Shown one piece after another: positions 2,328 through 25,635 of a stretch of DNA of 32,000 bases. Under the pieces are notes generated by a model. It saw nothing but the letters and a program-made list of their open reading frames with translations. It made no database searches and was not told where the DNA came from. The translations under genes and the position numbers were made by a program. The stretch covers positions 56,114 to 88,113 of the forward strand of contig PBAU01000011.1 of assembly GCA_002716355.1 (NCBI GenBank), read 5' to 3'. Source of the stretch: a bacterium. GTDB lineage: Bacteria > UBP7 > UBA6624. How positions within the stretch are numbered: the first letter of the stretch is position 1; every line of letters begins with the position of its first letter.

Positions 2328-5300
2328 ATGATTTTTGGCTTTAAACAAAATCCTAAAAAAAAGATATTAGCTTTTTTTAAAAAAGGTAAAAGCGATAGCG
2401 CTATAGAGCACCTCGAAAAATCCTGGAGTGAGATAGGCGTTCAAGATCGAGTAGAGATATTAGATTCATGGACTTTAAAGAAATCAGATAATGAGATGCA
2501 GCAAAAATGGTTATCTTTTGTTGAGAAGCATGCTTCGGACCAAGGCCCTTTGGATGATCTGGAAAGTAAAATCCGCAAAAATGCTGATAATGATTATGTT
2601 TTTGATTATGAGTTATGGGTTAATTTAGCCAACCAGCATAAAAATGATTTTTTCTTGGTGCTTGCTACTGGAAATGAAATTTTTCCATATGGTGATTATT
2701 CTTCTTTTTTAAAAAATAAAATCGATCCATTATTTATTTTTTTTATGAGGAGAAGATTAGCTTCTGAGTTAAAAATTTGCAAAGAATTATTACCCTTTTT
2801 GAAACACCTTGTGAAAGGTGATAAAGATGATATGGTGAAAAATTTATATGTTGAATATTTATTCAAACATAAGATATGGGAACAAAAAAATATTTCACTT
2901 GTGCAAAATTATTTAGTTAAAAATTTTAAGAATACAGATATTTCAGACTGGGCATTCCAGAATCTAAAAGCCCCTCTTTCGGATAAGTGGTTCGATTTGT
3001 TGAAGCGGTCTTTCAAGAGTAAACCTACGTCTTCTAATAAAAAATTACTTGCATGGTGTTGTTTTGAAAAAGGTATATATTTTGAGCCTTTGGAGGAAGA
3101 GATTGCTAACATAGGTATGCAAAATAAAAATACTAGATTGAAAGCAGTTGACATATTGTTGAGGTCAAAAAAACCAACCCCTCAAACGGTTAAGCTTTTC
3201 TGCCTGTCTTCTTCTGAGTGTCCTTCAAATGAGTTAATTTTGATTTTTTTAATTCAGCATCTTGAAGATGAGAAGTTGTTACACACACTTGTTTCTGCAA
3301 GAAATATTAATGAGAATTTAATTTCAGAATTTTTTTCAAGATGGAAAAAATCAACTCCAAGTGATTTAAATCTTGTTGTTAGGGTTCTTCAGCAATCATT
3401 ATCGTTGGGTTTGAGCTTATCAAAAAATGAATTAAAAATATTCTCTTCTTTAAGAGATCAAAAGGTTCTTTTTTGGCTTGCATCACTTGGGTTTGTTTCT
3501 GAAAATTTTGAATTAGTACAGGATTTAATTGGACGTATGGATAAAAAAATAAAATCTTATTTTGAATACAAGATGAATCTTCATTTTTCAAACAAGAAAT
3601 ACGATTTCTTGAAAAATCATTTTGATTTCCCTTGGAGCCTTATGGACAAGGCTCAATATCTTGAAAGCATTTCAGAATTCACAAAAGCAAATGAGATATA
3701 CAAGGAGGCTTGCGGAACCAAACATTATTCAGGTATATTCGCGAAATTAAAAATGGTAGCTAATGGTGTTGAGGTTTTGACTGATTCTGATTTCAAAAAA
3801 ATGAAAAATATTTCAAGTTCAGACTTAGCTGAACTGTTTTTCTTGAATGGTTTGTTTTACGTGGACAAAGGTAACTGGCTGCAATGTGAAAACTTCTTCA
3901 AGAAAGCTTATGAGCAAAAAGAAGATAAACGTTATATAAGTTCTTTAATTGAAATTTATTACAGATGGTCATCGGAATTGATATTGGAAAAAAAATTATC
4001 CAAAGCACAAGCTATTATTGAAAAAGGCCTGTCTATCGGTGATGATCCAAGATTAGTGAAGAATTTGATTTTGACAAATCCTAAAGTCACATCATGGAAT
4101 CAAATAAAAAAAATAAAATTAAAAAATATTGAAGACGAATTGTTATCAGATTATTTCTGGATTGCCTGGCGTTCTGGAGATTATAAAAATGCTGATGCTG
4201 CCTTAAAGAGATGCATACCTTTAAGCAAATCTGAGACATTTATTAAAAGAATCGCTCGGTATTATTTAGAAATGCCAATTCCAAAAGATGACAGTTTGAA
4301 AGGTAAAATTTGGGAAAAATTACATGTTTTGAATCGTCCATGGCTTACTGCTGCTATAGCTGTATCTCAAGATGAAAAACCACCTTTTCCAAAAGAGGTA
4401 CCGTCTGGAATTGAAAAATTATTAACAGGTTGGAGTTTAATGCAGATTGGCCAATTAGAAAATGCACAATTTCATTTTTCTAAACTTTTAAATGGACCTA
4501 TAAAAAATCTTGGAACTGGCATTAAAAGAGCAAGGTCACATATTGTTTTAGGTTATTGCCTTTTGGCCTGTAGGGATCTTGAATCTGCGGAAGAGGCGTG
4601 GAGCCGAAGTGCTCATTTCGGTATTAGCAATTCCCTTGTTAGCACTTTAAAATTTGTGATTGAACTAGAAAAAGGGGTTAAGAAAGCTTTGGCTGGAAGA
4701 AACCCATTGAAAAATTATGTGAAAGCTTTAAATCATCCAATTACAAAAGATGCTGCCGAAAAAAATTTAGCCATTCATTTTACTTTTTCAGGAGATTTTT
4801 TAAATGCTGGTAAGTATTGGGACAGTCTTGTTGAGAACTTTTCTGAAAAAAAATCCCCAGAAGAAGAGGTTTGGCTTGATATAAGTATCCAGATGGCAAG
4901 CTATTGTCACAAAATTAAGGATGGGAAAGATATTAATTTGATAGAGATGGCAGCTTTGGAGGATGAGGTTGAAAACATAAAGAAACAACTTAAGAGTTAT
5001 AGAGATTTAGGAGTTGATCCAGGTGTTTCTGAAGATGACTTGGAAAGAGCTTATTTCCAGCGTATCAAAAATTTCACACCTGAAAAAAATCCAGAAGAAT
5101 TTCGAAGAATAGAAGAAGCAAGGCAGTTTATTGCAGATCCAGACTTGAGATTAAGGACTGAATTGTTCACTCAGTCTGGCGTAAAAAAGAATAAACTGCT
5201 TCAGTTTTTGTCTTTTTATGAATGTGATCCATTAGATTTTTTTGTTGATCTGGTTGAAAAACCTGATTTTCTTCCTGAATTAACCTTTTTCAAAAATTAT

Positions 5301-5399
5301 GATCTTGAACTGCCAGAAAGTAATGAAGCGATCATTAGAAATTCTTTTGCAGAATGCAGGAGAAATGAACCTTTTGAATCGGAGTCTAATTTCTTTTAA
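2328..5399 (+). CDS. Large (1023 aa) helical-repeat (TPR-like) protein with a C-terminal J-like domain lacking HPD
   Basis: Long uninterrupted ORF with Lys/Leu/Glu-rich helical-repeat character, e.g. GNWLQCENFFKKAYEQ, GDYKNADAALKRCI and GQLENAQFHFSKLL. Near the C-terminus, YRDLGVDPGVSEDDLERAYFQRIKNFTPEKNPEEFRRIEEARQFIADPDLR aligns with the DnaJ J-domain consensus (Y..LGV...AS..EIK.AYR.LA...HPD.NP....F..I.EAY.VLSDP..R). Confidence 0.6.
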   Translation: MIFGFKQNPKKKILAFFKKGKSDSAIEHLEKSWSEIGVQDRVEILDSWTLKKSDNEMQQKWLSFVEKHASDQGPLDDLESKIRKNADNDYVFDYELWVNLANQHKNDFFLVLATGNEIFPYGDYSSFLKNKIDPLFIFFMRRRLASELKICKELLPFLKHLVKGDKDDMVKNLYVEYLFKHKIWEQKNISLVQNYLVKNFKNTDISDWAFQNLKAPLSDKWFDLLKRSFKSKPTSSNKKLLAWCCFEKGIYFEPLEEEIANIGMQNKNTRLKAVDILLRSKKPTPQTVKLFCLSSSECPSNELILIFLIQHLEDEKLLHTLVSARNINENLISEFFSRWKKSTPSDLNLVVRVLQQSLSLGLSLSKNELKIFSSLRDQKVLFWLASLGFVSENFELVQDLIGRMDKKIKSYFEYKMNLHFSNKKYDFLKNHFDFPWSLMDKAQYLESISEFTKANEIYKEACGTKHYSGIFAKLKMVANGVEVLTDSDFKKMKNISSSDLAELFFLNGLFYVDKGNWLQCENFFKKAYEQKEDKRYISSLIEIYYRWSSELILEKKLSKAQAIIEKGLSIGDDPRLVKNLILTNPKVTSWNQIKKIKLKNIEDELLSDYFWIAWRSGDYKNADAALKRCIPLSKSETFIKRIARYYLEMPIPKDDSLKGKIWEKLHVLNRPWLTAAIAVSQDEKPPFPKEVPSGIEKLLTGWSLMQIGQLENAQFHFSKLLNGPIKNLGTGIKRARSHIVLGYCLLACRDLESAEEAWSRSAHFGISNSLVSTLKFVIELEKGVKKALAGRNPLKNYVKALNHPITKDAAEKNLAIHFTFSGDFLNAGKYWDSLVENFSEKKSPEEEVWLDISIQMASYCHKIKDGKDINLIEMAALEDEVENIKKQLKSYRDLGVDPGVSEDDLERAYFQRIKNFTPEKNPEEFRRIEEARQFIADPDLRLRTELFTQSGVKKNKLLQFLSFYECDPLDFFVDLVEKPDFLPELTFFKNYDLELPESNEAIIRNSFAECRRNEPFESESNFF

Positions 5400-5865: not shown

Positions 5866-6153
5866 ATGTTTAGAAAGATTTTTTCTGGTGAAAGTTGGAA
5901 AGCTGAGAGTGATGAAGATTTTGCTTCAAACCTTGTAGATAACGGCCTAGGGGTTCCTTCAGTGTTTTTATTAGAGTTAGCAAAACCTTTGAACGTTTTG
6001 GCATCTTCGGCATTTACGGTTCTTTCACCAGTCGGACACTTGTTTTTCGATAGGGAAAAATGGGATGTTGTGCCGGATTTTTTTTCAGACAGGAAAAGAA
6101 TCGAAGATATGATAAATTCAATAGAAAAGGAATTAGCTGCTCATGAATCATAA
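5866..6153 (+). CDS. Hypothetical 95-aa protein, probable first gene of the uncharacterised operon
   Basis: The ORF overlaps the downstream ATPase gene by 11 nt (6143..6153). It has an acidic N-terminus, a central hydrophobic stretch VPSVFLLELAKPLNVLASSAFTVLSPVG and an acidic C-terminal helix. I recognised no family. Confidence 0.5.
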   Translation: MFRKIFSGESWKAESDEDFASNLVDNGLGVPSVFLLELAKPLNVLASSAFTVLSPVGHLFFDREKWDVVPDFFSDRKRIEDMINSIEKELAAHES

Positions 6154-7921
6154 AAATTTTATCGCTACTGATTGTGGCTCAACTACTACAAAGGCAATTT
6201 ACATCGAGAAAAAAAAGGATGGCTACAGGTTGGAAAAAAGAGGAGAGGCTCCTACCACCGTCGAAGCCCCTTTTGAGGATGTTACAGCAGGAGTGGTTAA
6301 TTCTGTAGAAGAGTTAGAGGAACTGTCAAAGAAAGCATTTTTATTGAAGGATGGCAAAGGCGTTATTAGGCCTAATGACGGAAAGAAAGGTGTCGATGCT
6401 TATGTTTCAACGTCATCTGCTGGTGGTGGCTTGCAGATGTTGGTAGCTGGAGTTGTGAAAGAAATGACTGCAGAGAGTGCGAATAGAGCTGCTTTGGGTG
6501 CTGGATCAATTGTGATGGATGCTCTTGCAATTAATGATGGTAGAAAAACATGGGAAAGAATTGAGCTAATTAGAAACTTAAGGCCAGACATGATTCTTCT
6601 TTCTGGAGGTACTGATGGTGGTGATGTTAATCATGTTGTTGAAATGGCAGAAGTGATTAAGGAAGCAAAACCAACATCAAGATTGGGTTCGGCTAAATTG
6701 CCAGTGATTTATGCTGGAAACATTGATGCAAGAAATACTGTTCAAGAAATATTAGGTGAAGTTTGTGATTTGTTTATCGTAGATAATCTTAGGCCAACTC
6801 TTGAATCTGAAAATCTTGGACCAGCAAGAGAGAAAATTCATGAGTTGTTTATGGAGCATGTCATGCAACAGGCTCCCGGATATCCAAAATTGATATCCTG
6901 GACTGACGCTCCAATTATGCCTACTCCAGGCGCAGTAGGTTCTTTAATAGAGCGAATTGCTGAAAAAGAAAAAATCCAGGTTGTAGGTGTTGATATAGGT
7001 GGTGCTACCACAGACATTTTCAGTGTTTTTTCTGACAAATTCAATCGAACTGTATCTGCCAATTTAGGTATGTCTTATTCCATTTCTCAAGTTATGGCTG
7101 AAGCTGGTTGGAAAAACGTTATGCGTTGGGTCCCTTTTGAAATGGATGAACAAGATTTGCGAAACAGAATTAAGAACAAAATGATAAGACCAACTACCAT
7201 CCCTCAAACGTTAGAGGAGTTGATTATTGAACAAGCATTAGCAAGAGAGGCTCTTTCTCTTTCTTTTGAACACCATAAATCTTTAGCTGTTGGTCTTAAA
7301 GGTGTTCAGCAACAGAGAACAATAGCAGATGCCTTTTCACAAAAATCAGGAGGAGAATCATTGATTAAAATGTCAGATCTTGATTTGCTTATAGGTTCAG
7401 GAGGTGTTTTGTCGCACGCTCCTAGAAGAGTTCAGTCAATGTCTATGCTGATCGATGCTTTTCAACCTGAGGGAATTACTGAACTGGCGGTAGATAGTAT
7501 TTTTATGATGCCTCATTTAGGAGTTCTTTCAACCATAAATGCTGATGCTGCTGTTGAGGTATTTGATAAGGATTGCTTAGTGAGGTTAGGCACATGTGTT
7601 GCTCCAAAAGGAGAAGCAAGAAAAGGGGAATCCATTTTAAAGGTTGAACTTGCTGATGGTAACTCTTTTGAGATGGGTTTTGGAGAGATAAAACTTATCG
7701 ATCTTGGGGTTGGTGAAAAATTAGAAGCAAAATTGTCTCCTGCAAAAAAGGTTGATTTAGGAGATGGCCCTGGTAAGGAAATGTCCGTCAGCTTAACCGG
7801 TGGGCAAGTCGGTGTTATTTTTGATACTAGAGGTAGACCTTTAACAATATCTACAAATGAGGAGGAAAGGATAAGAAGTTTGAAAACTTGGCATGAAAGT
7901 TTGAATCTTTATCCGGAATAG
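6143..7921 (+). CDS. ASKHA (actin/HSP70-fold) ATPase of the GlmL/MutL (glutamate-mutase accessory protein L) type
   Basis: Two phosphate-binding motifs occur at the spacing expected for this fold: IATDCGSTTTKAIY near the N-terminus and VVGVDIGGATTDIFSV mid-protein. It also has LLSGGTDGGD and LIGSGGVLSHAP, which I associate with the GlmL/MutL and EutA-like reactivase group. This is not the DNA-mismatch-repair MutL. Confidence 0.6.
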   Translation: MNHKNFIATDCGSTTTKAIYIEKKKDGYRLEKRGEAPTTVEAPFEDVTAGVVNSVEELEELSKKAFLLKDGKGVIRPNDGKKGVDAYVSTSSAGGGLQMLVAGVVKEMTAESANRAALGAGSIVMDALAINDGRKTWERIELIRNLRPDMILLSGGTDGGDVNHVVEMAEVIKEAKPTSRLGSAKLPVIYAGNIDARNTVQEILGEVCDLFIVDNLRPTLESENLGPAREKIHELFMEHVMQQAPGYPKLISWTDAPIMPTPGAVGSLIERIAEKEKIQVVGVDIGGATTDIFSVFSDKFNRTVSANLGMSYSISQVMAEAGWKNVMRWVPFEMDEQDLRNRIKNKMIRPTTIPQTLEELIIEQALAREALSLSFEHHKSLAVGLKGVQQQRTIADAFSQKSGGESLIKMSDLDLLIGSGGVLSHAPRRVQSMSMLIDAFQPEGITELAVDSIFMMPHLGVLSTINADAAVEVFDKDCLVRLGTCVAPKGEARKGESILKVELADGNSFEMGFGEIKLIDLGVGEKLEAKLSPAKKVDLGDGPGKEMSVSLTGGQVGVIFDTRGRPLTISTNEEERIRSLKTWHESLNLYPE

Positions 7922-7925
7922 ATTT

Positions 7926-9044
7926 ATGGCACAAGCATTTACCCCAGGTTTAACTAGAGCAGCTGGTTTAAAAGTTATAAAAACAAGACGACTGCCTCTT
8001 TTAGGTGAAACTCTTTTCAAAGTTGGAGATAAAGTTTCAGCTACTGATATTGTTGCTAGAACAGATTTACCAGGACCTGTTTCAGTTTTAAAAATTTCTC
8101 ATAGGTTAGGTTGCCAACCAGGTGAATTAAAGGATTTCATGTCTGTAAAAGAAGGAGATGCCATTTCTAATGGTCAAGTTATTGCAGAGAGCAAAGGTTT
8201 TATGGGGTTTTTTAAATCGGAATTTAAATCTAACACTGATGGAATCATAGAAAGTATATCAAAAGTAAATGGTCAAGTTTATGTAAGAGGCACTCCTATT
8301 CCAGTTGAAATGGAAGCTTATATTGATGGAAAAATTATTGATGTTATGAAGGATGAAGGCGTAATGGTTGAAACTGTTGCGACAATGGTTCAAGGCATTT
8401 TTGGCGTGGGTGGAGAAACTGGAGGAAAGTTAATTTTTGGAGTTGATTCTCCATCTGATGTTTTAGCTCCGTCTGACTTGAAAGAAGATATGAAGGATTG
8501 TATTGTGGTTGCCGGTGCATGCTTGACACAGGAAACCATAATGAAAGCCAAATCTATTGGCATTAAAGGATTGGTGGGTGGAGCGCTTCATGATAAAGAT
8601 TTGAGATCTTTTTTGGGTTATGACATAGGGGTTGCTATTACTGGTAATGAAAATATAGGTATAACCTTGGTGGCAACTGAGGGTTTTGGAGAATTGAAAA
8701 TGGATTCCAATACATGGAGTTTGTTGAAGTCATGTGAAGGTAAAAGAGCAAGCATAAATGGTGCTACACAAATTAGAGCAGGTGTTTTAAGGCCTGAAAT
8801 AATCATCCCTACACCTGAAGAAAAATCAAAAGATTCTGATAGTGGTGCTGGATCATTAGAGATAGGTACTAAAATTGTTGTTATCAGAAACCCTTACTTT
8901 GGATTAACTGGCACTGTTTCAGAACTTATCGTTGAACCACAGAGGCTAGAATCAGAAGCTAAAGTAAGAGTTTTGAAAGTAAAATTAGAAAATGGAGATG
9001 AGGCTATTGTGCCGCGTGCTAATATAGAAAGACTAGCATCATGA
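7926..9044 (+). CDS. Soluble 372-aa protein: N-terminal barrel-sandwich-hybrid (lipoyl/biotinyl-like) repeats, central alpha/beta region, C-terminal KOW-like barrel
   Basis: Hybrid-barrel-like hairpins FKVGDKVSATDIVART and VKEGDAISNGQVIAES. The C-terminal IGTKIVVIRNPYFGLTGTVSEL...KVRVLKVKLENGDEAIVPRANIERL matches the KOW pattern G..V.V..G.F.G..G.V seen in NusG and L24. It starts 4 nt after the ATPase stop. Confidence 0.5.
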   Translation: MAQAFTPGLTRAAGLKVIKTRRLPLLGETLFKVGDKVSATDIVARTDLPGPVSVLKISHRLGCQPGELKDFMSVKEGDAISNGQVIAESKGFMGFFKSEFKSNTDGIIESISKVNGQVYVRGTPIPVEMEAYIDGKIIDVMKDEGVMVETVATMVQGIFGVGGETGGKLIFGVDSPSDVLAPSDLKEDMKDCIVVAGACLTQETIMKAKSIGIKGLVGGALHDKDLRSFLGYDIGVAITGNENIGITLVATEGFGELKMDSNTWSLLKSCEGKRASINGATQIRAGVLRPEIIIPTPEEKSKDSDSGAGSLEIGTKIVVIRNPYFGLTGTVSELIVEPQRLESEAKVRVLKVKLENGDEAIVPRANIERLAS

Positions 9045-9841
9045 TTTTTAATTTTTTTATTTCTTCAGATGCTTTTTTCAAAGCCGATCATGAGGTAACA
9101 CTGATTGCTTGCCTTTTGTTCATGGGAGCTATACTTTACACTCTTTCTAAAGCCAGAAGAGGAGCTGATCTTTATATACGTTCAATTCCAGGTTTGGATG
9201 CTGTTAATGAAGCTATTGGAAGAGCTACCGAAATGGGTAAGCCGATACTCTATTGCCCTGGCTTGTCAAGCGCAGCTGACGTTGCAACCTTGGCAAGTTT
9301 AAACATATTAGGTAGGGTTGCTCAAAGGGTTGCAAATTATGAAAGTCGCTTGATAGTTCCGCATAGAGATCCTATTGTTATGACTGTAGCAAAAGAAACT
9401 TTGAAGGATGCTTATTTACAAGCTGGAAAACCTGAAATATTAAATGAAGAGGATAATTTTTTCATTACTGAAGATCAGTTTGGTTATACTGCTGCTGTTA
9501 ATGGAATAATGGTAAGAGAAAGACCAGCAACTGTATTTTTGCAAGGCATGTTTTTTGCTGAATCTTTATTGTTGGCTGAAACAGGAAATTCAATTGGTGC
9601 AATTCAAATTGCAGGAACTGATGCTGTGCATCAGTTGCCATTCTTTGTTGCTTCTTGTGATTACACGCTTATTGGAGAGGAGCTGTATGCCGCTGGAGCA
9701 TACTTATCAAAAGCTCCTGATTTAATGTCATCACTTAAAGCTGCTGACTTGATCAAAGGAATCTTATGGGTTTTGATAGTTATCGGTCTTGTCTTGACTT
9801 TTGTGGGCAACGCATCTATTTTTGAGGTATTTGGCAAATGA
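9041..9841 (+). CDS. Module 1, subunit A: protein with N- and C-terminal membrane anchors, uncharacterised family
   Basis: ATGA overlap with the upstream stop. N-terminal TM VTLIACLLFMGAILYTL and C-terminal TM ILWVLIVIGLVLTFVG. Clear paralog of 12130..12939, sharing the near-invariant block AESLLLAETGNSIGAIQIAGTDAV.QLPFF..SCDYTLIGEELYAA.AYLS. Confidence 0.8.
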   Translation: MIFNFFISSDAFFKADHEVTLIACLLFMGAILYTLSKARRGADLYIRSIPGLDAVNEAIGRATEMGKPILYCPGLSSAADVATLASLNILGRVAQRVANYESRLIVPHRDPIVMTVAKETLKDAYLQAGKPEILNEEDNFFITEDQFGYTAAVNGIMVRERPATVFLQGMFFAESLLLAETGNSIGAIQIAGTDAVHQLPFFVASCDYTLIGEELYAAGAYLSKAPDLMSSLKAADLIKGILWVLIVIGLVLTFVGNASIFEVFGK

Positions 9842-10506
9842 AAACAAAACTTCCTGTAACCATTGCTTTTCTGACTGGTTTATTTATGGCTTTTGCTTAT
9901 TTTGTTGAAAGGGATAATGTTGCATGGGTAAGGATTCTTTACGAAGAGTTGAATCAGAACAACATTGTTCTTGCTGTGTTTGTTTTGTTTTTAGGGGTTG
10001 GTACACTTTTAATCCGTCATGCAAAAAAAATCAGAGATAAAAATTCTGATTCAATTTATTCTTGGGTTGTTATAGTGTCGACTCTTGCAGTTGCATACAT
10101 TGGTTTGTTTCAAACCACTGGAGAAAGCATTGGGGCAAATGAAAATTTTCAGTGGATATTTAATAATTTTCAGGTTCCTCTTTCTGCAACTATGTTTTCA
10201 CTTTTAGCATTTTTTGTTGCAAGTGCTGCCTACAGAGCTTTTAGAGCAAGAAACACAGAGGCAACTTTATTGCTGATTGCCGCAGCAATAGTGATGATAG
10301 GAAGGGTACCTATTGGATCGGTTATTTCCGACAGTTTGAGTTTAACTGGATCTTTTTCTTTGCCTGCAATTGCTGAATGGATTTTAGATATCCCAAATAC
10401 GGCTGCAAAGAGAGCTATAACTATTGGTATCGGATTAGGGATGACGGCTACTGCAATAAAGATTATTTTCGGTATAGAGAGAACTTATATGGGAAGTGGT
10501 AAATAA
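9838..10506 (+). CDS. Module 1, subunit B: polytopic membrane protein (about 6 hydrophobic segments), uncharacterised family
   Basis: ATGA overlap with subunit A. Hydrophobic segments include LPVTIAFLTGLFMAFAYFV, IVLAVFVLFLGVGTLLI, WVVIVSTLAVAYIGLF, ATMFSLLAFFVASAAY, ATLLLIAAAIVMIG and AITIGIGLGMTATAIKIIFG. Paralog of 12936..13580. Confidence 0.8.
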   Translation: MKTKLPVTIAFLTGLFMAFAYFVERDNVAWVRILYEELNQNNIVLAVFVLFLGVGTLLIRHAKKIRDKNSDSIYSWVVIVSTLAVAYIGLFQTTGESIGANENFQWIFNNFQVPLSATMFSLLAFFVASAAYRAFRARNTEATLLLIAAAIVMIGRVPIGSVISDSLSLTGSFSLPAIAEWILDIPNTAAKRAITIGIGLGMTATAIKIIFGIERTYMGSGK

Positions 10507-11363
10507 TGAATATTTGGGATAAGTTGTCTTCAATTGATAGAAGGTGGATATTTCTTGCAATGGCCATTTTCGTTTCATGGCCAGTATTAAAACCCTTAGG
10601 CCTTCCAGTAACAACAACAAAAGAAGTTGAAAGTCTTTATAGCTTTATTGAGGAAATCGAAGATAAGAAACCAATAATTTTAGCTCTTGATTACGGTCCA
10701 TCTACTGCTCCTGAACTAACACCTATGGCAAAAGCTGTTATGAGGCATGCTGTAAGCAAAGGGATTCCTGTTGTGGGGGTAAGTTTAGCTCCAGATGCTC
10801 CAGGGGTTGCAAATGATATCTGGAAATGGGCGGAAGAAGAATTAGGCGCTATTCCGGGTGAGGATATTGCATACCTTGGATACAAAGCAGGAACAACAAA
10901 TGTTATCTTGCAGATGGGACAGGGTATATCTAAGGCTTTTCCAAAGGATTATTATGGCAACAACACAGATGATTTGGAAATCATGGAAGGTTTTGAAAGT
11001 TTAAAAGATGCCTCTCTTGTTCTCGGTCTTGAGGCAACTGCCATTATGGATTTATGGATTCAGTATGCTGGTGACCAAATGGGTGTTCCTGTTGCCGGCG
11101 GAATGACAGCGGTTTCTGCGCCTGAGGCTTATGTGTTTTATCAGTCAGGGCAAATAGTTGGTTTGATGGGAGGCATGAAAGGCGGAGCTGAATATGAACT
11201 CTTAGTTGGTGCACCTGGAAATGCTGTTCAGGGCATGGATGCTCAATCACTAGGACATATTGTTATTATTGTTTTTATCATTTTTGGAAATCTTGGTTTT
11301 TTCTTAGGTAAAAAAGGCCAAGACGTTTCCAGATTAAAGTCTTTAAGAGGTGATCAGAAATGA
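10506..11363 (+). CDS. Module 1, subunit C: about 220-aa soluble domain bracketed by N- and C-terminal TM helices, uncharacterised family
   Basis: TAATG 1-nt overlap with subunit B. N-terminus MNIWDKLSSIDRRWIFLAMAIFVSWPVL and C-terminal anchor LGHIVIIVFIIFGNLGFFLG. The central region has alternating beta-alpha character (KPIILALDYGPS, GIPVVGVSL). Paralog of 13577..14437. Confidence 0.8.
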   Translation: MNIWDKLSSIDRRWIFLAMAIFVSWPVLKPLGLPVTTTKEVESLYSFIEEIEDKKPIILALDYGPSTAPELTPMAKAVMRHAVSKGIPVVGVSLAPDAPGVANDIWKWAEEELGAIPGEDIAYLGYKAGTTNVILQMGQGISKAFPKDYYGNNTDDLEIMEGFESLKDASLVLGLEATAIMDLWIQYAGDQMGVPVAGGMTAVSAPEAYVFYQSGQIVGLMGGMKGGAEYELLVGAPGNAVQGMDAQSLGHIVIIVFIIFGNLGFFLGKKGQDVSRLKSLRGDQK

Positions 11364-12133
11364 TTTTGAATTTAATTGCACCTCTTGGGACTACAGAAGG
11401 TTTAGGTATATGGATTGCCGCTTTCTTGACTTTATGTATTTTTTCTTTCCTGTATAAAGACAATCCTTTTTATAAATTTGCCGAACATTTATTTGTTGGT
11501 GTCTCTAGTGGATATTACATTTCTATCTATTATTGGAACACATTGAAGCCAAACATGATTGACGAATTAGTGAAAGGCTTTAAGGCTTTAGGTCAGGGTA
11601 ATACGCAAAAAGCTTTTGGTCTTGATGAAAGTGGCGCTGTTATGGCTGAGCCTCATTTAAGAATGTTGATACCACTAATGCTGGGTATTTTTATATTGTT
11701 GATATTTATATCTAGAAAAAATGCTTGGTTATCAAGGATATCATTTGCTTGGTATATAGGTGTTGCAAGTGGAATAGCCATACCAACTGCTATGTCAACC
11801 AGGGTTCTCCTACAGGCTCAAGGCTCCATAAGAGATTTTTGTTCATATAATTCCGATTGTGCGACCTCTGCAGGTTTGGATCCTCAGGTTGCAACTACAG
11901 CACTATGGATCAATGCCTTTTTGCTTTTGATTGGAACATTGTCTGCTTTAGCTTATTTCTTCTTCAGCTTACCCTCCAAAGGAGCACTTAAAGTTATGAA
12001 TAAAGTCGGAATTTACTTTTTGATGATTTCTTTTGGAGCTTCATTTGGGTATACGGTTATGGCTCGTATAAGTCTTCTTATCGGCAGGCTGCAGTTTCTT
12101 TTTTATGAGTGGCTTGGTATTACTATTTCATGA
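11360..12133 (+). CDS. Module 1, subunit D: polytopic membrane protein with a conserved C-x5-C loop, uncharacterised family
   Basis: ATGA overlap with subunit C. Contains GLGIWIAAFLTLCIFSFLYKDNPFYKFAEHLFVG, further hydrophobic helices and the loop FCSYNSDCATS. Paralog of 14434..15174. Confidence 0.8.
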   Translation: MILNLIAPLGTTEGLGIWIAAFLTLCIFSFLYKDNPFYKFAEHLFVGVSSGYYISIYYWNTLKPNMIDELVKGFKALGQGNTQKAFGLDESGAVMAEPHLRMLIPLMLGIFILLIFISRKNAWLSRISFAWYIGVASGIAIPTAMSTRVLLQAQGSIRDFCSYNSDCATSAGLDPQVATTALWINAFLLLIGTLSALAYFFFSLPSKGALKVMNKVGIYFLMISFGASFGYTVMARISLLIGRLQFLFYEWLGITIS

Positions 12134-12939
12134 TTTTTAATTTTTTAAATTTAATGTTTCAAATTCAAATAAAAGAGGGAACAGGTCCTGTTTTTTTTGT
12201 TTTGGTTCTTTTTGTCGCAGCTCTTTTTTTCTTTTTAGATAAAGCAAGAAAAGGTGCAACTTTTAAGATTAGAAAGATTGCTGGTCTTGATGCTGTAAAT
12301 GAGGCTATAGGAAGGGCTACAGAAATGGGCAAATCTATCCTTTACACAACAGGATTAGAAACTGCAAGTCATATAGCGACCATTGCTTCATTGACCATAT
12401 TGTCTAGGGTTGCCAAAAGAGCAGCAAGATATGGAACTAGGTTACAGGTTCCTTCTTTTGATCCGATTGTTATGAGTTTAAGTCAAGAGATAGTACGAGA
12501 ATCTTATCTTGAGGAAGGAATGGTTGACAGCTTTAAAGGCGATGACATTTTTTATTTAACTCAGGAGCAATTTGCATACACTGCAGCTGTTGAAGGTGTT
12601 TTGGTAAGAGAAAAACCTGCAACTGTTTTTTTAATGGGTTATTTTTATGCAGAATCTTTACTATTGGCTGAAACTGGCAATTCGATTGGGGCGATTCAAA
12701 TTGCTGGAACAGATGCTGTTACACAGCTTCCATTTTTTATCGTTTCCTGTGATTACACATTGATTGGTGAGGAGCTTTATGCAGCAAGTGCTTACCTTTC
12801 AGAGGATTCAAATATTATTTCATCTTTAAAGGCCCAAGATTTTGGAAAAGCTTTATTATGGATATTTTTGCTTTTGGGAAGTATTGTAACTTTTGCTGGT
12901 TCTACTAAATTCCTTTCATTATTAGGAGCTTCTACTTGA
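12130..12939 (+). CDS. Module 2, subunit A (paralog of 9041..9841)
   Basis: The track ORF begins at 12109. ATG at 12130 forms an ATGA overlap with the upstream stop and gives MIFNFL..., matching the MIFNFF... start of the module 1 copy. The two copies are identical at 47 of 51 residues across the AESLLLAETGNS...AYLS block (hand count). Confidence 0.8.
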   Translation: MIFNFLNLMFQIQIKEGTGPVFFVLVLFVAALFFFLDKARKGATFKIRKIAGLDAVNEAIGRATEMGKSILYTTGLETASHIATIASLTILSRVAKRAARYGTRLQVPSFDPIVMSLSQEIVRESYLEEGMVDSFKGDDIFYLTQEQFAYTAAVEGVLVREKPATVFLMGYFYAESLLLAETGNSIGAIQIAGTDAVTQLPFFIVSCDYTLIGEELYAASAYLSEDSNIISSLKAQDFGKALLWIFLLLGSIVTFAGSTKFLSLLGAST

Positions 12940-13580
12940 ACAACAGAGGACCTCTTTTGATTGCATTTGTTTGCGGTATGTTGATGATGGCTGAATCTTT
13001 CCTTGACTATTCTTGGTTGAATAGTTTTGCTGAATGGGTTCAGAAATACTACATCATTATTGCTGCGTTTGCAATTGTTTTAGGTGTTGCGAGCCTATTT
13101 AAGCTTCACTTGGCAAAACTTAAAAGGAAAGAGGACGGCTGGAGATATTCTCTTGTGGTATTTTTTGGCTTTTTTGCAATGATAATCACTGGTTTTTTCA
13201 TGAATGATGATGGTCTTGTTGGAACTAAGCATCCATGGAACGCTTGGTTGTATAACAATGTTCAGCTTCCATTGGGAGCGACAATGTTTTCGCTTTTGGC
13301 ATTTTTTATTGCAAGTGCAGCCTATAGGGCTTTCAGAGCAAGGTCTTTAGAAGCAACTTTACTGCTTGTGGCAGCATGTTTGGTTATGCTTGGTCAGGTG
13401 CCAATACTTACTGGCGGTATTTTTGATAATCTTCCTGAGATAAAACAATGGATTTTAGATATTCCAAATATGGCCAGCAAAAGAGCAATCATGATTGGTG
13501 TTGGTTTAGGGATGATGTCAACAGCATTAAAGATTATTTTCGGTATTGAAAAAACATATCTAGGTGGAAGTGAAGAATGA
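12936..13580 (+). CDS. Module 2, subunit B (paralog of 9838..10506)
   Basis: The TTG start overlaps the upstream TGA (TTGA). This start is supported by alignment of MNNRGPLLIAFVCGMLMMAESF with MKTKLPVTIAFLTGLFMAFAYF. The block VQLPLGATMFSLLAFFIASAAYRAFRARSLEATLLLVAACLVMLGQVPIL is identical at 38 of 50 positions to the module 1 copy (hand count). Confidence 0.8.
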   Translation: MNNRGPLLIAFVCGMLMMAESFLDYSWLNSFAEWVQKYYIIIAAFAIVLGVASLFKLHLAKLKRKEDGWRYSLVVFFGFFAMIITGFFMNDDGLVGTKHPWNAWLYNNVQLPLGATMFSLLAFFIASAAYRAFRARSLEATLLLVAACLVMLGQVPILTGGIFDNLPEIKQWILDIPNMASKRAIMIGVGLGMMSTALKIIFGIEKTYLGGSEE

Positions 13581-14437
13581 ACATTTGGGACAGACTGCAA
13601 TCGATAGACAGGCGTTGGATTTTTTTAGTTATGTTTATTGTTATCATCATTCCATTGATGAATCCACAAAGCTTGGATATAAATGTTAGTGAGCCAACAA
13701 GAAAAGCTTTTGAGAGAGTCGAAAAGATTCCTAGTGATAGCAATGTTTTAATATCTTGGGATTTTGATCCTGGAAGTCAGGCAGAATTATTGCCAACAGC
13801 TAAAGCAATGTTGCATCAATTGTTCAAAAAAGATGTGAATATTGTTGTTATTACCTTATTGCCCGCTGCTCCAACCTTGGCTGATACAACTTTGAATGAA
13901 ATCTCATCTATTTACAAGAAAGAAGAAGGGGTCGATTGGGTTAATCTTGGTTTTAAGCCAGGATTGGATATTGTTGTTAAAAGCATTGGAACAGATATTT
14001 ATGAAATTTTTCCAGCTGATGACAAAGGAAAAAGGGTTGAAAGTATACCTTTGATGAAAGATATAAGAAATTACGATGATTTTGATTTAGTTATTGATTT
14101 AAGCGCTGGCTCAAGTGTTGACTTTTTTGTCGAACAGGCTCATGGCAGATACGGTGTTGATCTTGTTGCTGCAGCAACTGGGGTTATGATTGGTGATTTT
14201 TACCCTTATTTAGAAGCAAACCAGCTTCAAGGATTAGTAGGAGCTCTTGTAGGTGCTGCTGAATACGAGAAGCTAATGGAGATTTCTTATGGTCTTGAAC
14301 CTGATAAAGCAACTGCTGGAATGCAGGCTCAAGCAAAAGCTCACATTGCCATAATAATTTTTATAATCTTGGGCAATATTGGTTTTTTTGCGAAAAGAAA
14401 TAAAACTTCACCAAAATTGGAGAGTTTAAGTAAATGA
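13577..14437 (+). CDS. Module 2, subunit C (paralog of 10506..11363)
   Basis: ATGA overlap. The N-terminus MNIWDRLQSIDRRWIFLVMFIVIIIPLM matches MNIWDKLSSIDRRWIFLAMAIFVSWPVL. It shares the G(A/G)AEYE.L motif and the C-terminal anchor AHIAIIIFIILGNIGFF. Confidence 0.8.
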   Translation: MNIWDRLQSIDRRWIFLVMFIVIIIPLMNPQSLDINVSEPTRKAFERVEKIPSDSNVLISWDFDPGSQAELLPTAKAMLHQLFKKDVNIVVITLLPAAPTLADTTLNEISSIYKKEEGVDWVNLGFKPGLDIVVKSIGTDIYEIFPADDKGKRVESIPLMKDIRNYDDFDLVIDLSAGSSVDFFVEQAHGRYGVDLVAAATGVMIGDFYPYLEANQLQGLVGALVGAAEYEKLMEISYGLEPDKATAGMQAQAKAHIAIIIFIILGNIGFFAKRNKTSPKLESLSK

Positions 14438-15174
14438 TTTTTAATTTACTAATTGCAAACCCTTTAAGCCCTGATGGTATTGGGGTTTGGATTGCTGCCA
14501 TACTGACAATAGCAATTTTTTCTTTTCTATACAAGGATAACCCTTTATTTAAATTTGCTGAACACCTTTATGTTGGAATTGGTGCTGGTTACATTGTTGT
14601 TGTAGCTTGGCACAATGATATTGCAACAAATGTTATTCAGCCTTTTAAAGATGGATTGACAGCTATTCAAAACAATGACCCTAGTGGTTGGGTAAATATG
14701 GTGAATCCAATCATGGCATGTGTTATTGGAAGTTTTCTTTTCTTTCCTGTTGTAGCTCCAAAATTTAGATGGCTTACAAAATATGCTTTTGCTTTTATAC
14801 TAGGAACCTTTTCAGGTATCAAGGTAGCACCTGTTATTAAAGAGAAATTAATTACCCAACTTTCATCTACGCTTGATCGTATTTGTGCAGTTTCGAATGA
14901 GTGTGCAGCACAGGTTGCGTCAATAAGCTACACGCCAGAAACATCAGCTATGTTTAATGCTGCTTTCGTTCTTTTGGGTGTTTTGTGTGGTTTGGTTTAT
15001 TTTTTCTTTTCTTTAGAGCATAAAGGCGGAACTAAGATTGTAGCCAAAACAGGCATACTTATCTTGATGGTTGGGTTTGGTGCAAGTTTTGGTTTAACAG
15101 TCATGGGACGTGTTTCTCTATTGATTGATAGAATTCAATTCCTTTTAACTGATTGGTTAGGCCTTATCGCTTAA
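14434..15174 (+). CDS. Module 2, subunit D (paralog of 11360..12133)
   Basis: ATGA overlap. GIGVWIAAILTIAIFSFLYKDNPLFKFAEHLYVG matches the module 1 copy. Also conserved are the C-x5-C loop (ICAVSNECAAQ) and the C-terminus GASFG.TVM.R.SLLI.R.QFL...WLG. Confidence 0.8.
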   Translation: MIFNLLIANPLSPDGIGVWIAAILTIAIFSFLYKDNPLFKFAEHLYVGIGAGYIVVVAWHNDIATNVIQPFKDGLTAIQNNDPSGWVNMVNPIMACVIGSFLFFPVVAPKFRWLTKYAFAFILGTFSGIKVAPVIKEKLITQLSSTLDRICAVSNECAAQVASISYTPETSAMFNAAFVLLGVLCGLVYFFFSLEHKGGTKIVAKTGILILMVGFGASFGLTVMGRVSLLIDRIQFLLTDWLGLIA

Positions 15175-17710: not shown

Positions 17711-18102
17711 GTATTTCAGTCGTAAATTTAAACTTGAATCTTGATAGTAAGATTCTTATGCTTTATGAGAAAATGAAGGAAAAAAGGATGCTTGAGGGCA
17801 AAGAGACAAATGGAGATGTTTCAATAATCTTTATAGATAAAGAACATATGAATAAATTAAATCTTGAATACAGGAAAAAAGATAAACCTACAGATGTTTT
17901 GACATTTGTTTTAAATAAGGATATTTTTGAAGGTGAGATTTATATATGTGCTTCAGTTTGCAGTGATGAAAATATTGAAAAATGGATCCTAGACAGGGTG
18001 ATTCATGGTTTCTTGCATATGGATGATTGTCATCACTCAACAAAGGAAGAGGAAACCATTAATGAAAAAAGACATAATGCCCTTTTACAGGAGATTAATT
18101 GA
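17707..18102 (+). CDS. ybeY: Endoribonuclease YbeY (rRNA maturation factor)
   Basis: About 130 aa. The zinc-binding signature HGFLHMDDCHH corresponds to canonical H-G-x-L-H-L-x-G-x-D-H, with His at positions 1, 5 and 11. KPTDVLTF is the conserved upstream motif (TDVLSF). The TTG start overlaps the upstream TGA. The gene sits in the phoH/HD/ybeY/CNNM context. Confidence 0.75.
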   Translation: MSISVVNLNLNLDSKILMLYEKMKEKRMLEGKETNGDVSIIFIDKEHMNKLNLEYRKKDKPTDVLTFVLNKDIFEGEIYICASVCSDENIEKWILDRVIHGFLHMDDCHHSTKEEETINEKRHNALLQEIN

Positions 18103-19373
18103 TGTCATTTTTTCAAGATCTTTCACTTTCAGGAATTGAAATTTTGACACCTTTAGTTTTGTTATTTTTTTCTGCCTTTTTCTCATTTGCTGAAGCTGCA
18201 ATTTTTGCAATATCAAGTACAGAATTGGCTTCAAAGAAAAATTCAGCTGCGAATGTTTTAAAAAAAATGGTATCAGACCCAGAGCAACTTTCAATGTGTT
18301 TAATGGTTGGTTACAACCTTGCGAATATAAGTTTAGCTTTATTGGTAACCCAATATGTTATGTCTTTTACATCTGGACTTGATAACCAAAAAATAATTCT
18401 GGGAGCAGTTGCTCTTTTTAATTTTTTTATTGTTACAACTTTTGGAGAAATTGTTCCCAGGTTATTGGCAATTAAGAAACCTTACGAAGCTGCATTGAGA
18501 TTTGCTCATGTTTTGTATTTTTTCACAATTATTTTAAAAATACCTGCTTTCATTATTAAGCATGTAAATAATATGTTTTTAAAAATGATGAAAGTTCCAG
18601 AACTTAGCGAAGGTAAAACAATTGAGAGAGAGGTCCAATCTTTGGCAAGTGATGAGGTTTTTGCAGAAAGTGTAGAGGATGATGAGGTAGAAATGATTCA
18701 AGGGGTTTTAAATTTGGAAGATTTAAATGTTAAAGATGTTATGGTCCCTCGTGTTGAGGTAGATGCATTAGAAAAATCTTTAAAGCTTAAAGAGGTTTTT
18801 GAACTTGTTGCAAGAAAATTCAGAAGTCGTTATCCTGTTTATAACGAAAGAATTGATAGTGTGATTGGGATTCTTCATGTTAAGGACATATTGGGAGAAA
18901 ATCCTAATAATTCAGTTGAAAAATATATAAGAAATGCTTTGATGTTTGCACCAAACATGCCTTTGGATAATGCTTTTAAGTCAATGAGAAACAATCGTAA
19001 ACATTTAGCTATAGTTTTAGATGAGTATGGGGGAATGGATGGCATTGTAACTGTTGAGGATTTACTTGAAGAGGTTGTTGGTCAAATAGAGGACGAATAC
19101 CAACTTGAAGATCCTGATTTGGTTGAGGTAAATGAAGATTTATTAATCGTAAGGCCAGCCTCAAGGGTGGCTGAGGTTATGGATTCGTTAGATTTACCAT
19201 GTATTGATCCTCCTGCACAACAGGTTGGACCACTTGTATACAAGGTGCTTGAAAGAGTCCCTAAAGAAAATGATGTTGTTAAATGGGGAGGCGCTATTTT
19301 CAAAATTGTTGACATGGATGGAACCCAGATAAAAAGACTTGAAATTCTCAAAAATAGCGAGGATGCAGAATGA
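18102..19373 (+). CDS. CNNM/TlyC/CorC-family protein (DUF21 membrane domain + CBS pair + CorC_HlyC C-terminal domain)
   Basis: The N-terminal DUF21-type helices include GEIVPRLLAIK. The CBS region contains VKDVMVPRVEV and IGILHVKDIL, followed by HLAIVLDEYGGMDGIVTVEDLLEEVVGQIEDEY, the family's signature. A C-terminal beta domain runs to residue 424. Confidence 0.8.
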   Translation: MSFFQDLSLSGIEILTPLVLLFFSAFFSFAEAAIFAISSTELASKKNSAANVLKKMVSDPEQLSMCLMVGYNLANISLALLVTQYVMSFTSGLDNQKIILGAVALFNFFIVTTFGEIVPRLLAIKKPYEAALRFAHVLYFFTIILKIPAFIIKHVNNMFLKMMKVPELSEGKTIEREVQSLASDEVFAESVEDDEVEMIQGVLNLEDLNVKDVMVPRVEVDALEKSLKLKEVFELVARKFRSRYPVYNERIDSVIGILHVKDILGENPNNSVEKYIRNALMFAPNMPLDNAFKSMRNNRKHLAIVLDEYGGMDGIVTVEDLLEEVVGQIEDEYQLEDPDLVEVNEDLLIVRPASRVAEVMDSLDLPCIDPPAQQVGPLVYKVLERVPKENDVVKWGGAIFKIVDMDGTQIKRLEILKNSEDAE

Positions 19374-21132: not shown

Positions 21133-21143
21133 AATTTAATGGT

Positions 21144-21959: not shown

Positions 21960-22045
21960 ATACTTACGTATTTAAAAAATATCATGTTTTGAAAATATGC
22001 TTTATACTTTATAGGTTTGAATGAATTTGATTCAAATGTAAAAAA
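21960..22045 (+). promoter_or_regulatory. AT-rich 86-bp gap upstream of the pseudopilin operon; weak sigma70-like candidate
   Basis: This is one of very few non-coding gaps in the window. TTGAAA (21989-21994), a 17-nt spacer and TAGGTT (22012-22017) make a poor -10. TATACT at 22003-22008 is a better -10 hexamer but has no good -35 partner. This is a weak hand call. Confidence 0.25.
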
Positions 22046-24516: not shown

Positions 24517-24531
24517 ATGGAGGTTGTAAAA

Positions 24532-25632: not shown

Positions 25633-25635
25633 TTT

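What the first reader, a model, noticed from the sequence alone, without database searches (positions are those of the whole stretch)
9041..15174. Ancient tandem duplication of the whole A-B-C-D cassette, kept under purifying selection
Genes 9041-12133 and 12130-15174 are collinear paralog sets (A1/A2, B1/B2, C1/C2, D1/D2) with the same order, similar lengths and the same overlap junctions. Divergence is old, not a recent or assembly duplication. In the A block AESLLLAETGNSIGAIQIAGTDAV, 10 of 24 codons differ between the copies and all the differences are synonymous (hand count), so the amino acids are identical. Overall the paralog pairs look roughly half identical by eye, with long invariant islands (47/51 in A, 38/50 in B). 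Both copies therefore appear functional and have subfunctionalised. This could mean two specificities, or a hetero-octameric assembly needing both modules.
Basis: seen in the sequence. Interest (0 to 1): 0.7.

Follow-up and report, generated by a model that had tools for sequence, protein, structure and literature searches.

The report
Duplicated uncharacterised membrane-protein gene cassette
Two old, diverged copies of a four-gene membrane-protein cassette sit side by side, both kept by strong selection, inside an operon with an actin/sugar-kinase-type ATPase; the system is widespread in uncultured bacteria, and I found no function for it in any library or paper search.

Summary
Window 9041-12133 (A1 B1 C1 D1) and 12130-15174 (A2 B2 C2 D2) are collinear paralogous cassettes. 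Protein identities are 56, 47, 33 and 41%. Synonymous sites are randomised and no conversion tract is present. Three independently assembled relatives carry both copies. Comparison with the closest ortholog gives dN/dS of 0.017-0.088 for all eight genes, as low as the housekeeping neighbours.

The cassette is part of a translationally coupled operon, X-M-L-(ABCD)x2. X is a 95-aa conserved protein. M is a GlmL/MutL-family ASKHA protein with intact nucleotide-binding motifs. L has an RnfC/NqrA-like barrel-sandwich domain and is fused to M in Fermentibacteria. A is DUF6754. B, C, D and X match no curated family or solved structure.

Relatives in many candidate phyla carry one, two or three cassettes. 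Shared derived characters suggest the window's duplication arose in its own lineage: a C-x5-C loop in both D copies and no FN3 domain in either A copy.

Between the copies the inferred cytoplasmic domain of A is 65% identical, while the inferred periplasmic domain of C is 26% identical. I read this as two membrane modules sharing one cytoplasmic partner set but differing on the outside. Function remains unknown.

The parts
5866..6153 (+). X: 95-aa protein with one hydrophobic segment and a charged C-terminal helix. It overlaps the start of M by 11 nt.
   Evidence: Homologs lie directly upstream of M in 13 loci from several phyla. No Pfam match. Ortholog dN/dS is 0.04.
6143..7921 (+). M: 592-aa ASKHA-fold protein of the MutL/GlmL family, with intact nucleotide-binding motifs.
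   Evidence: Pfam PF13941, E 6e-130. It scores below the NCBIfam cut-offs for GlmL proper: 231.8 bits against 475, and 177.9 against 204 for the subfamily. The motifs DCGSTTTK, DIGGATTD and GSGG can be read in the translation. M lies next to the cassettes in 24 or more loci.
7926..9044 (+). L: 372-aa protein with an N-terminal barrel-sandwich hybrid domain, a conserved alpha/beta middle part and a KOW-like C-terminus.
   Evidence: RnfC_N matches 21 of 23 family members, Biotin_lipoyl 18 of 23 and NQRA_N 11 of 23, mostly below threshold. The hairpin has no conserved lysine. L is fused to M as one 916-aa protein in Fermentibacteria. The L family has at least 8000 database hits, none with a functional annotation.
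9041..9841 (+). A1: DUF6754 protein. A Rossmann-like alpha/beta domain, inferred to be cytoplasmic, lies between N- and C-terminal TM helices.
   Evidence: PF20539, E 2.5e-112. The AF2 model has pLDDT 74. No Foldseek PDB hit below 1e-3. TM segments.
9838..10506 (+). B1: polytopic membrane protein with about 6 TM segments and the conserved motif ASAAYRAFRAR.
   Evidence: Hydropathy and conservation. No consistent Pfam or PDB match.
10506..11363 (+). C1: bitopic protein. An alpha/beta domain of about 210 aa, inferred to be periplasmic, lies between two TM helices.
   Evidence: The AF2 model has pLDDT 91.7. No Foldseek PDB hit below 1e-3. No Pfam match. Topology is inferred from the positive-inside rule.
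11360..12133 (+). D1: polytopic membrane protein with a lineage-specific C-x5-C loop.
   Evidence: The D family has 1941 representatives at 50% identity with E<=1e-3.
12130..12939 (+). A2: paralog of A1 (56% identity). The ATG at 12130 is the likely start, giving MIFNF as in A1.
12936..13580 (+). B2: paralog of B1 (47% identity), with a TTG start.
13577..14437 (+). C2: paralog of C1 (33% overall, 26% in the inferred periplasmic domain).
14434..15174 (+). D2: paralog of D1 (41% identity). It has the same lineage-specific C-x5-C motif.

Best explanation
The region is a real, old tandem duplication of a four-gene inner-membrane cassette. It lies inside one translationally coupled operon, X-M-L-A1B1C1D1-A2B2C2D2.

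Inferred: each cassette encodes one membrane module. A is a bitopic protein with a cytoplasmic Rossmann-like DUF6754 domain. B has about six TM segments. C is a bitopic protein with a periplasmic alpha/beta domain. D is polytopic. The modules work with a single-copy cytoplasmic set: the GlmL-family ASKHA protein M, the barrel-sandwich protein L, and the small protein X.

Shown: both cassettes are under strong purifying selection. The copies are most alike in the inferred cytoplasmic parts and least alike in the inferred periplasmic parts.

Inferred: the two modules dock to the same M-L-X partners but act on different periplasmic substrates or partners, so they are specialised paralogs. The duplication most likely arose within the window's own lineage, separately from the tandem duplications in other phyla. 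The biochemical activity is unknown. My guess is ATP-coupled transport or transduction across the inner membrane.
For: - **Duplication and divergence:**
- **Purifying selection on every gene:** ortholog dN/dS is 0.017-0.088, against 0.052 and 0.026 for the PhoH and HD neighbours.
- **One operon:** 4-nt overlaps throughout, no intergenic space and no intergenic terminator-like site.
- **Link between M-L-X and ABCD:** they are adjacent in at least 24 of 79 related loci from WOR-3, TA06, Eisenbacteria, Planctomycetota and Fermentibacteria, in two different gene orders. M and L are fused in Fermentibacteria.
- **Regional asymmetry between the copies:** A cytoplasmic domain 65%, B TM4 plus loop 4 84-88%, C periplasmic domain 26%, D loops 11-15%.
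- **Topology of A:** most A homologs carry an N-terminal FN3 domain before the first TM helix, which places DUF6754 in the cytoplasm.
- **Cassette number varies:** 38 loci with one, 22 with two and 2 with three.
- **Lineage-specific origin:** the C-x5-C motif occurs only in the window lineage (9 of 88 D proteins) and is in both D1 and D2. Both A1 and A2 lack FN3. The 'type II' clade of second cassettes excludes A2-D2 with 87% bootstrap. The two window cassettes pair as sisters in 51% of bootstraps for the concatenated genes, 82% for A and 62% for B.
Against: - No physical interaction has been tested, because complex modelling was not available.
- Topology rests on hydropathy and the positive-inside rule, not on a dedicated predictor or an experiment.
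- L, and sometimes M-L, occur without adjacent cassettes (L085-L090). A cassette also occurs without M-L (L080). The coupling is therefore frequent but not universal.
- The sister grouping of the two window cassettes gets 0-1% support from C and D taken alone. It could also reflect long-branch or low-GC compositional attraction.
- The most conserved stretch of A is the least confident part of its model.
- No homology supports any particular activity.
Confidence: 0.6

Rival explanations
1. The two modules form an obligate mixed assembly. A1-D1 and A2-D2 co-assemble into one hetero-octameric (or larger) complex, and neither works alone.
For: Both cassettes are co-transcribed and translationally coupled in fixed order. 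Both are retained in all three relatives that span the region. M-L-ABCD-ABCD recurs in several phyla.
Against: Many loci have a single cassette, and some have three. One 110-kb Fermentibacteria contig (L062/L074) shows only one complete cassette. Independent duplications would each have to evolve the same dependence.
Confidence: 0.2
2. The window's duplication is the same ancient event that produced the type I and type II cassettes of WOR-3, TA06 and Eisenbacteria. A2-D2 would then be fast-evolving type II genes.
For: The gene order is identical: M-L, then a cassette, then a cassette. The grouping typeII+W2 appears in 23% of bootstraps. C and D give no support for pairing the two window cassettes. 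C2 is on average slightly closer to type II than to type I, 0.366 against 0.341.
Against: Type II is monophyletic without A2-D2 in 87% of bootstraps. All four proteins of the second cassette score higher against type I than type II HMMs, although the type I model was built from more sequences. The two cassettes share derived characters: the C-x5-C loop and the loss of FN3.
Confidence: 0.25
3. The copies are redundant or serve dosage only, with no functional divergence.
For: Every family-wide invariant motif checked is kept in both copies.
Against: Protein identity is only 33-56% and synonymous sites are saturated. Divergence is strongly regional, and each copy is separately constrained, with ortholog dN/dS below 0.1. 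Redundant copies are rarely kept for that long. This last point rests on general knowledge.
Confidence: 0.08
4. M-L-X and the ABCD cassettes are functionally unrelated neighbours. M-L-X would instead belong with glycine cleavage and lipoylation.
For: In L087 the order is gcvT-H-PA-PB-lplA-X-M-L, with no cassette adjacent. gcvP and lplA flank the cluster in WOR-3-type loci. L is often solitary.
Against: M-L and ABCD are adjacent in unrelated phyla and in two different orders. These include the window and Fermentibacteria, where no gcv genes are nearby. In the window L and A1 overlap by 4 nt. L lacks the lipoyl or biotinyl lysine.
Confidence: 0.15
5. The duplication is an assembly artefact or a recent event.
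For: None found.
Against: Nucleotide identity is 48-62%, the longest shared word is 19 nt, and synonymous sites are saturated. The same two-cassette structure appears in three other independent assemblies.
Confidence: 0.01

Closest known systems
Pfam DUF6754 (PF20539)
   Same: A1 and A2 are full-length members, at 374.6 and 361.8 bits against a cut-off of 27.
   Different: The family has no assigned function. Most members carry an extra N-terminal FN3 domain that A1 and A2 lack.
GlmL/MutL accessory protein of glutamate mutase and related ornithine-degradation proteins (PF13941, NF040745, NF040744)
   Same: M is a clear PF13941 member with intact ASKHA nucleotide-binding motifs.
   Different: M scores far below the equivalog and subfamily cut-offs and is about 130 aa longer. 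No B12-dependent mutase genes are in the window. Its partners are membrane proteins and a BSH protein.
Na+-NQR and Rnf ion-translocating complexes (NqrA/RnfC peripheral subunit plus small polytopic and bitopic membrane subunits)
   Same: L has an RnfC_N/NQRA_N-like barrel-sandwich domain followed by an alpha/beta part and a small beta-barrel. The operon also encodes two polytopic subunits of 200-250 aa and a bitopic subunit with a periplasmic domain.
   Different: No membrane subunit matches the Rnf-Nqr, RnfD or FMN_bind families. No Fe-S or flavin motifs were seen. The BSH hits are mostly below threshold, and the partner is an ASKHA ATPase. This is a resemblance in architecture only.
Actin-like ATPases tied to membrane scaffolds (PilM-PilNOP, MreB-MreCD, FtsA)
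   Same: An ASKHA-fold cytoplasmic protein is encoded next to bitopic and polytopic inner-membrane proteins.
   Different: No sequence or structural homology was detected for any membrane component. This analogy comes from memory and was not tested.

Membership tests
DUF6754 (PF20539) | Full-length HMM match above the gathering score | tested here: met
   A1 scores 374.6 bits and A2 361.8 bits against a cut-off of 27.
MutL/GlmL family (PF13941) | HMM match above the gathering score | tested here: met
   M scores 434.4 bits against 27, E 6e-130.
GlmL proper (glutamate mutase accessory protein, NF040745 / TIGR01319) | Score above the NCBIfam equivalog or subfamily cut-off | tested here: not met
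   231.8 bits against 475, and 177.9 against 204.05.
GlmL proper (glutamate mutase accessory protein) | Encoded with B12-dependent mutase subunits | tested here: not met
   Pfam scans of the window ORFs of at least 100 aa on the + strand found no mutase or B12-binding domains.
Rnf / Na+-NQR complexes | RnfC/NqrA-type N-terminal barrel-sandwich domain in the peripheral subunit | tested here: inconclusive
   The window L scores 17.4 bits against RnfC_N, below the 25.6 cut-off. Across the family, 21 of 23 members match RnfC_N and 11 of 23 match NQRA_N at E<=1.
Rnf / Na+-NQR complexes | Membrane subunits of the Rnf-Nqr (A/E, D/E), RnfD/NqrB and FMN_bind families | tested here: not met
   Per-member scans of the B, C and D families at E<=1 did not list these Pfam families.
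Biotinyl/lipoyl carrier proteins | Conserved modifiable lysine at the tip of the barrel-sandwich hairpin | tested here: not met
   The position varies across 23 L homologs (K, P, Q, gap).
Known anti-phage defence systems (PADLOC) | Any component matching a PADLOC model | tested here: not met
   No hits for any of the 10 proteins.
Any structurally characterised family | Sequence or fold match to a PDB entry | tested here: not met
   phmmer and profile searches found only FN3 (in the N-termini of A homologs) and the BSH domain of L. Foldseek with the A1 and C1 models gave no hit at E<=1e-3, only generic Rossmann-like folds. B, D, L, M and X were not modelled.

The most novel reading that the evidence does not exclude
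X-M-L-(ABCD)n is a previously undescribed inner-membrane machine coupled to an ASKHA ATPase. It is conserved across Fermentibacteria, WOR-3, TA06, Eisenbacteria, Zixibacteria, Cloacimonadota, Planctomycetota and related uncultured phyla. Its four-protein membrane module has been multiplied independently in several lineages to diversify the periplasmic side, while one cytoplasmic motor or regulator is shared.
Probability: 0.4. Interest if true: 0.8.

Novelty: categorically new. Interest (0 to 1): 0.6.

Why it matters
A tandem operon duplication is ordinary by itself. What is duplicated is not.

- **Conservation:** the membrane cassette is highly conserved. A is about 60% identical and L about 50% identical across phyla.
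- **Size:** the D family has about 1900 clusters at 50% identity. The A and L searches each returned at least 8000 hits.
- **No relatives:** three of the four cassette proteins are absent from Pfam, and nothing in the cassette resembles a solved structure.
- **Partners:** it is linked to a GlmL-type ASKHA ATPase, a protein type otherwise associated with B12 enzymes, and to an RnfC/NqrA-like barrel-sandwich protein.

If these parts form one machine, it would be a new kind of energy-coupled membrane system in lineages that are almost entirely uncultured. The two paralogous modules in this window offer a natural comparison for locating its specificity-determining surface.

Tried and rejected
- **Internal duplication of the cassette (A~C, B~D):** hhalign found nothing.
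- **Defence system:** PADLOC gave no hits.
- **L as a lipoyl or biotinyl carrier:** there is no conserved lysine.
- **C as a CHASE2 sensor domain:** one source gives this name to the homolog P0192, but no Pfam support appeared in 94 family members.
- **Weak single-sequence Pfam hits of B** (Acyl_transf_3, Nitrate_red_gam) **and D** (DUF7312): these are not reproduced across the families.
- **Structural identification of A and C:** Foldseek found only generic Rossmann-like folds.
- **Riboswitch or other RNA in the window:** none found.
- **Literature:** no papers mention DUF6754, PF20539 or PF13941, and no relevant paper came from four other term combinations.
- **Recent gene conversion between the copies:** no tract was found. 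The highest same-codon fraction in any 20 sites is 0.65, and the longest exact shared word is 19 nt.
- **YN00 and some LWL85 dN/dS estimates** failed because of saturation. I used ortholog comparisons instead.
Full report
**1. Checking the observation**

Eight + strand ORFs fill 9041-15174 with no intergenic space. The first set is A1 (266 aa), B1 (222), C1 (285) and D1 (257). The second is A2 (269 aa from the ATG at 12130), B2 (214, TTG start), C2 (286) and D2 (246).

BLASTP pairs them one to one over their full length:

| Pair | Identity | E-value |
|---|---|---|
| A | 56% | 2e-109 |
| B | 47% | 6e-66 |
| C | 33% | 4e-48 |
| D | 41% | 1e-63 |

- The 24-residue block in A is identical in both copies, with exactly 10 synonymous codon differences.
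- The best invariant islands are 47/51 in A and 39/50 in B.
- Every junction is a 4-nt start/stop overlap except B1/C1, which overlaps by 1 nt.

**2. Age of the duplication**

- Nucleotide identity between the copies is 48-62%.
- The best ungapped DNA repeats are 104-187 nt at 71-73% identity, spaced about 3.08 kb apart.
- The longest shared exact word is 19 nt.
- At identical amino acids the same codon is used in 39-53% of cases. Random draws from the window's own codon usage would give 43-45%.

Synonymous sites are therefore saturated, and no recent conversion tract is visible. This is neither a recent duplication nor an assembly artefact. Three other independent metagenome assemblies (L001, L002, L003) carry both cassettes in the same order.

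**3. Selection**

Paralog dN/dS by NG86 is 0.23-0.36. Because dS is saturated (1.2-2.1), these are only upper bounds.

A better test compares each gene with its ortholog in L001, where dS is 0.34-0.74. There dN/dS is 0.021, 0.019, 0.088 and 0.067 for A1-D1, and 0.036, 0.029, 0.017 and 0.046 for A2-D2. The neighbouring PhoH and HD genes give 0.052 and 0.026. Both copies are under strong purifying selection.

**4. What the genes are**

A1 and A2 are full-length DUF6754 proteins (PF20539). B, C and D match nothing in Pfam, NCBIfam or PADLOC. The weak single-sequence hits of B and D are not reproduced when 34-94 family members are scanned one by one.

AlphaFold2 models give these pictures:
- A1 is a five-stranded Rossmann-like domain between an N-terminal and a C-terminal TM helix (pLDDT 74). 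Its most conserved stretch, residues 170-211, is the least confident part.
- C1 is a six-stranded alpha/beta domain between two TM helices (pLDDT 91.7).

Neither model has a Foldseek PDB match at E<=1e-3. Only generic Rossmann-like folds appear. Sequence and profile searches of the PDB find nothing for the A (DUF6754 part), B and D profiles, or for the C1 sequence.

Hydropathy suggests B has about six TM segments and D five to six. A is not detectably related to C, nor B to D.

Topology is inferred, not measured.
- Most A homologs are about 400 aa and have an N-terminal FN3 domain before the first TM helix. A KARRG-type positive patch follows that helix. Both features place the DUF6754 domain in the cytoplasm.
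- C has a conserved DRR before its first helix and a basic C-terminal tail. Both features place its alpha/beta domain in the periplasm.

**5. The larger operon**

Three more genes lie directly upstream and overlap or abut the cassettes.
- **X** (5866-6153, 95 aa) has no Pfam match.
- **M** (6143-7921) matches PF13941 MutL/GlmL at E 6e-130. The ASKHA phosphate-1, phosphate-2 and adenosine motifs are intact. It falls well below the NCBIfam cut-offs for GlmL proper.
- **L** (7926-9044) has a barrel-sandwich hybrid domain. Across 23 homologs this domain matches RnfC_N (21), Biotin_lipoyl (18) and NQRA_N (11). It has no conserved modifiable lysine. A conserved alpha/beta part and a KOW-like C-terminus follow.

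No terminator-like site falls between genes.

**6. Relatives**

A scan of one genome per GTDB species found 467 stretches encoding A relatives. The best 80 matches, 79 distinct loci, were kept. They come almost entirely from uncultured lineages: Fermentibacteria, WOR-3, TA06, Cloacimonadota, Eisenbacteria, Zixibacteria, Latescibacterota, Coatesbacteria, Stahlbacteria, Planctomycetota and Ignavibacteriales.

The families are large.
The named hits are 'hypothetical' or carry only domain-based names such as DUF6754, FN3 or KOW.
- D has 1941 cluster representatives at 50% identity.

Mapping all window proteins onto the loci shows the following:
- 62 loci hold at least one complete ABCD cassette: 38 have one, 22 have two and 2 have three. 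Contig ends limit these counts.
- The order (X)-M-L-ABCD-ABCD recurs in WOR-3, TA06, Eisenbacteria and others.
- In Fermentibacteria the order is ABCD followed by a single 916-aa M-L fusion protein. A gene fusion of this kind is strong evidence that M and L work together.
- X is found upstream of M in 13 loci.

The coupling is not universal.
- L, or X-M-L, can occur without adjacent cassettes (L085-L090).
- One lone cassette sits next to PTS HPr and EI genes with no M-L nearby (L080).
- In several phyla the cluster is flanked by glycine-cleavage genes and a lipoate-protein ligase gene. In L087 these genes directly precede X-M-L. I could not explain this linkage.

**7. When the duplication happened**

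A neighbour-joining tree of concatenated ABCD (870 columns, 88 cassettes) separates two deep clades. Type I contains the cassettes next to M-L and nearly all single cassettes. Type II contains the second cassettes of the WOR-3, TA06 and Eisenbacteria type.

In that full tree A1-D1 fall inside type I, and A2-D2 sit on a long branch outside type II. Bootstrapping on a reduced taxon set gives these supports:

| Grouping | Bootstrap support |
|---|---|
| Type II monophyletic without A2-D2 | 87% |
| Two window cassettes as sisters, concatenated | 51% |
| Two window cassettes as sisters, A alone | 82% |
| Two window cassettes as sisters, B alone | 62% |
| Two window cassettes as sisters, C or D alone | 0-1% |
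| Type II plus A2-D2 | 23% |

The tree alone does not settle the question, and long-branch or low-GC attraction is possible. Two shared derived characters point the same way, though.
- A C-x5-C motif at the same alignment position in a D loop occurs only in the window lineage (9 of 88 D proteins). It is present in both D1 and D2.
- Both A1 and A2 lack the FN3 extension that most other A proteins carry.

The most parsimonious reading is a duplication within this lineage, after those changes. It would be separate from the type I/II event and from further duplications seen in L024, L042/L070 and L066. The cassette therefore seems to have been multiplied repeatedly while M-L stays single.

**8. 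How it probably works (inference)**

Divergence between the copies is strongly regional:

| Region | Identity between copies |
|---|---|
| A, cytoplasmic domain | 65% |
| B, TM4 plus following cytoplasmic loop | 84-88% |
| C, periplasmic domain | 26% |
| D, loops | 11-15% |

With a single-copy M-L-X, this fits two paralogous membrane modules that keep a common cytoplasmic docking surface and have diverged on the periplasmic side. They would then handle different substrates or partners.

An obligate mixed octamer is less likely as a family trait, because many loci have only one cassette. It is not excluded for this lineage.

The activity itself is unknown. The architecture is an ASKHA ATPase, an RnfC/NqrA-like peripheral protein, two polytopic subunits and two bitopic subunits with soluble domains on opposite sides of the membrane. 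This suggests ATP-coupled transport or transduction, but no homology supports any specific reaction.

**9. Comparison with known systems and verdict**

Membership is met only for DUF6754 (A) and the broad MutL/GlmL Pfam family (M). It is not met for GlmL proper, for Rnf/Nqr membrane subunits, for lipoyl or biotinyl carriers, or for PADLOC systems. Five literature searches found nothing on this cluster.

The duplication itself is an ordinary evolutionary event. The system that was duplicated appears to be uncharacterised and far from any described machine. The window's twin modules give a useful handle for studying it.

Noticed in passing
window 5866-6153 (+): A small conserved ORF X (95 aa, with a hydrophobic segment and a charged helix) overlaps the start of M. 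Homologs lie upstream of M in 13 loci of several phyla. It has no Pfam family.
   Followed up: partly
L007:13206-15956, L082:13695-16445, L083:3934-6684: In Fermentibacteria M and L are fused into a single 916-aa protein, encoded downstream of one ABCD cassette. A lone extra A gene lies a few kb further on.
   Followed up: partly
L087:2723-11125; also L005, L009, L013, L022, L071: Glycine-cleavage genes (gcvT, H, PA, PB) and a lipoate-protein ligase gene flank X-M-L. In L087 no ABCD cassette is adjacent. The linkage recurs across phyla and is unexplained.
   Followed up: partly
L080:4719-12172: A lone ABCD cassette with no M-L nearby sits directly after PTS HPr, Enzyme I and a SIS/PGI gene, and before a mannose-1-phosphate guanylyltransferase-like gene.
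   Followed up: no
window 9041, 12130, 14434 (and 11360): A1, A2 and D2 begin with the same 14 nt, ATGATTTTTAATTT (MIFNF/L), and D1 begins MILNL. This shared start sequence across non-homologous genes may reflect a translational-coupling context.
   Followed up: no
window 11360-12133 and 14434-15174 (D loop, about residues 160-172): A C-x5-C motif is present only in the window lineage, in both D1 and D2. It may form a periplasmic disulfide or a metal site.
   Followed up: partly
window 9041-9841, residues 170-211 of A1: The most conserved stretch of the DUF6754 family (AESLLLAETG...CDYTLIGEELYAA, with an invariant Cys) has the lowest AlphaFold confidence, pLDDT 35-48. It may be an interface or a mobile element.
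   Followed up: no
window 18099-19373 and 19370-20332 (+): There is a second tandem pair of paralogs in the window: two CNNM/CBS (CorC-type) proteins. The second lacks the CorC_HlyC domain.
   Followed up: no
window 21090-31006 (+): This stretch holds a prepilin peptidase, then four large proteins (343-503 aa) with N-terminal methylation motifs, then a 1288-aa ORF with no Pfam match. It looks like an unusual type IV pilus or pseudopilus cluster.
   Followed up: no
window 2328-5399 (+): A 1023-aa protein has only weak TPR and DnaJ-domain matches. It is conserved just upstream of the operon in the close relatives L001 and L002.
   Followed up: no
L088:7920-15516: M (called as two pieces) and L lie next to ExbB-ExbD-TonB and OmpA/Pal-like genes in a 2.26-Mb genome, with no ABCD cassette nearby.
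   Followed up: no
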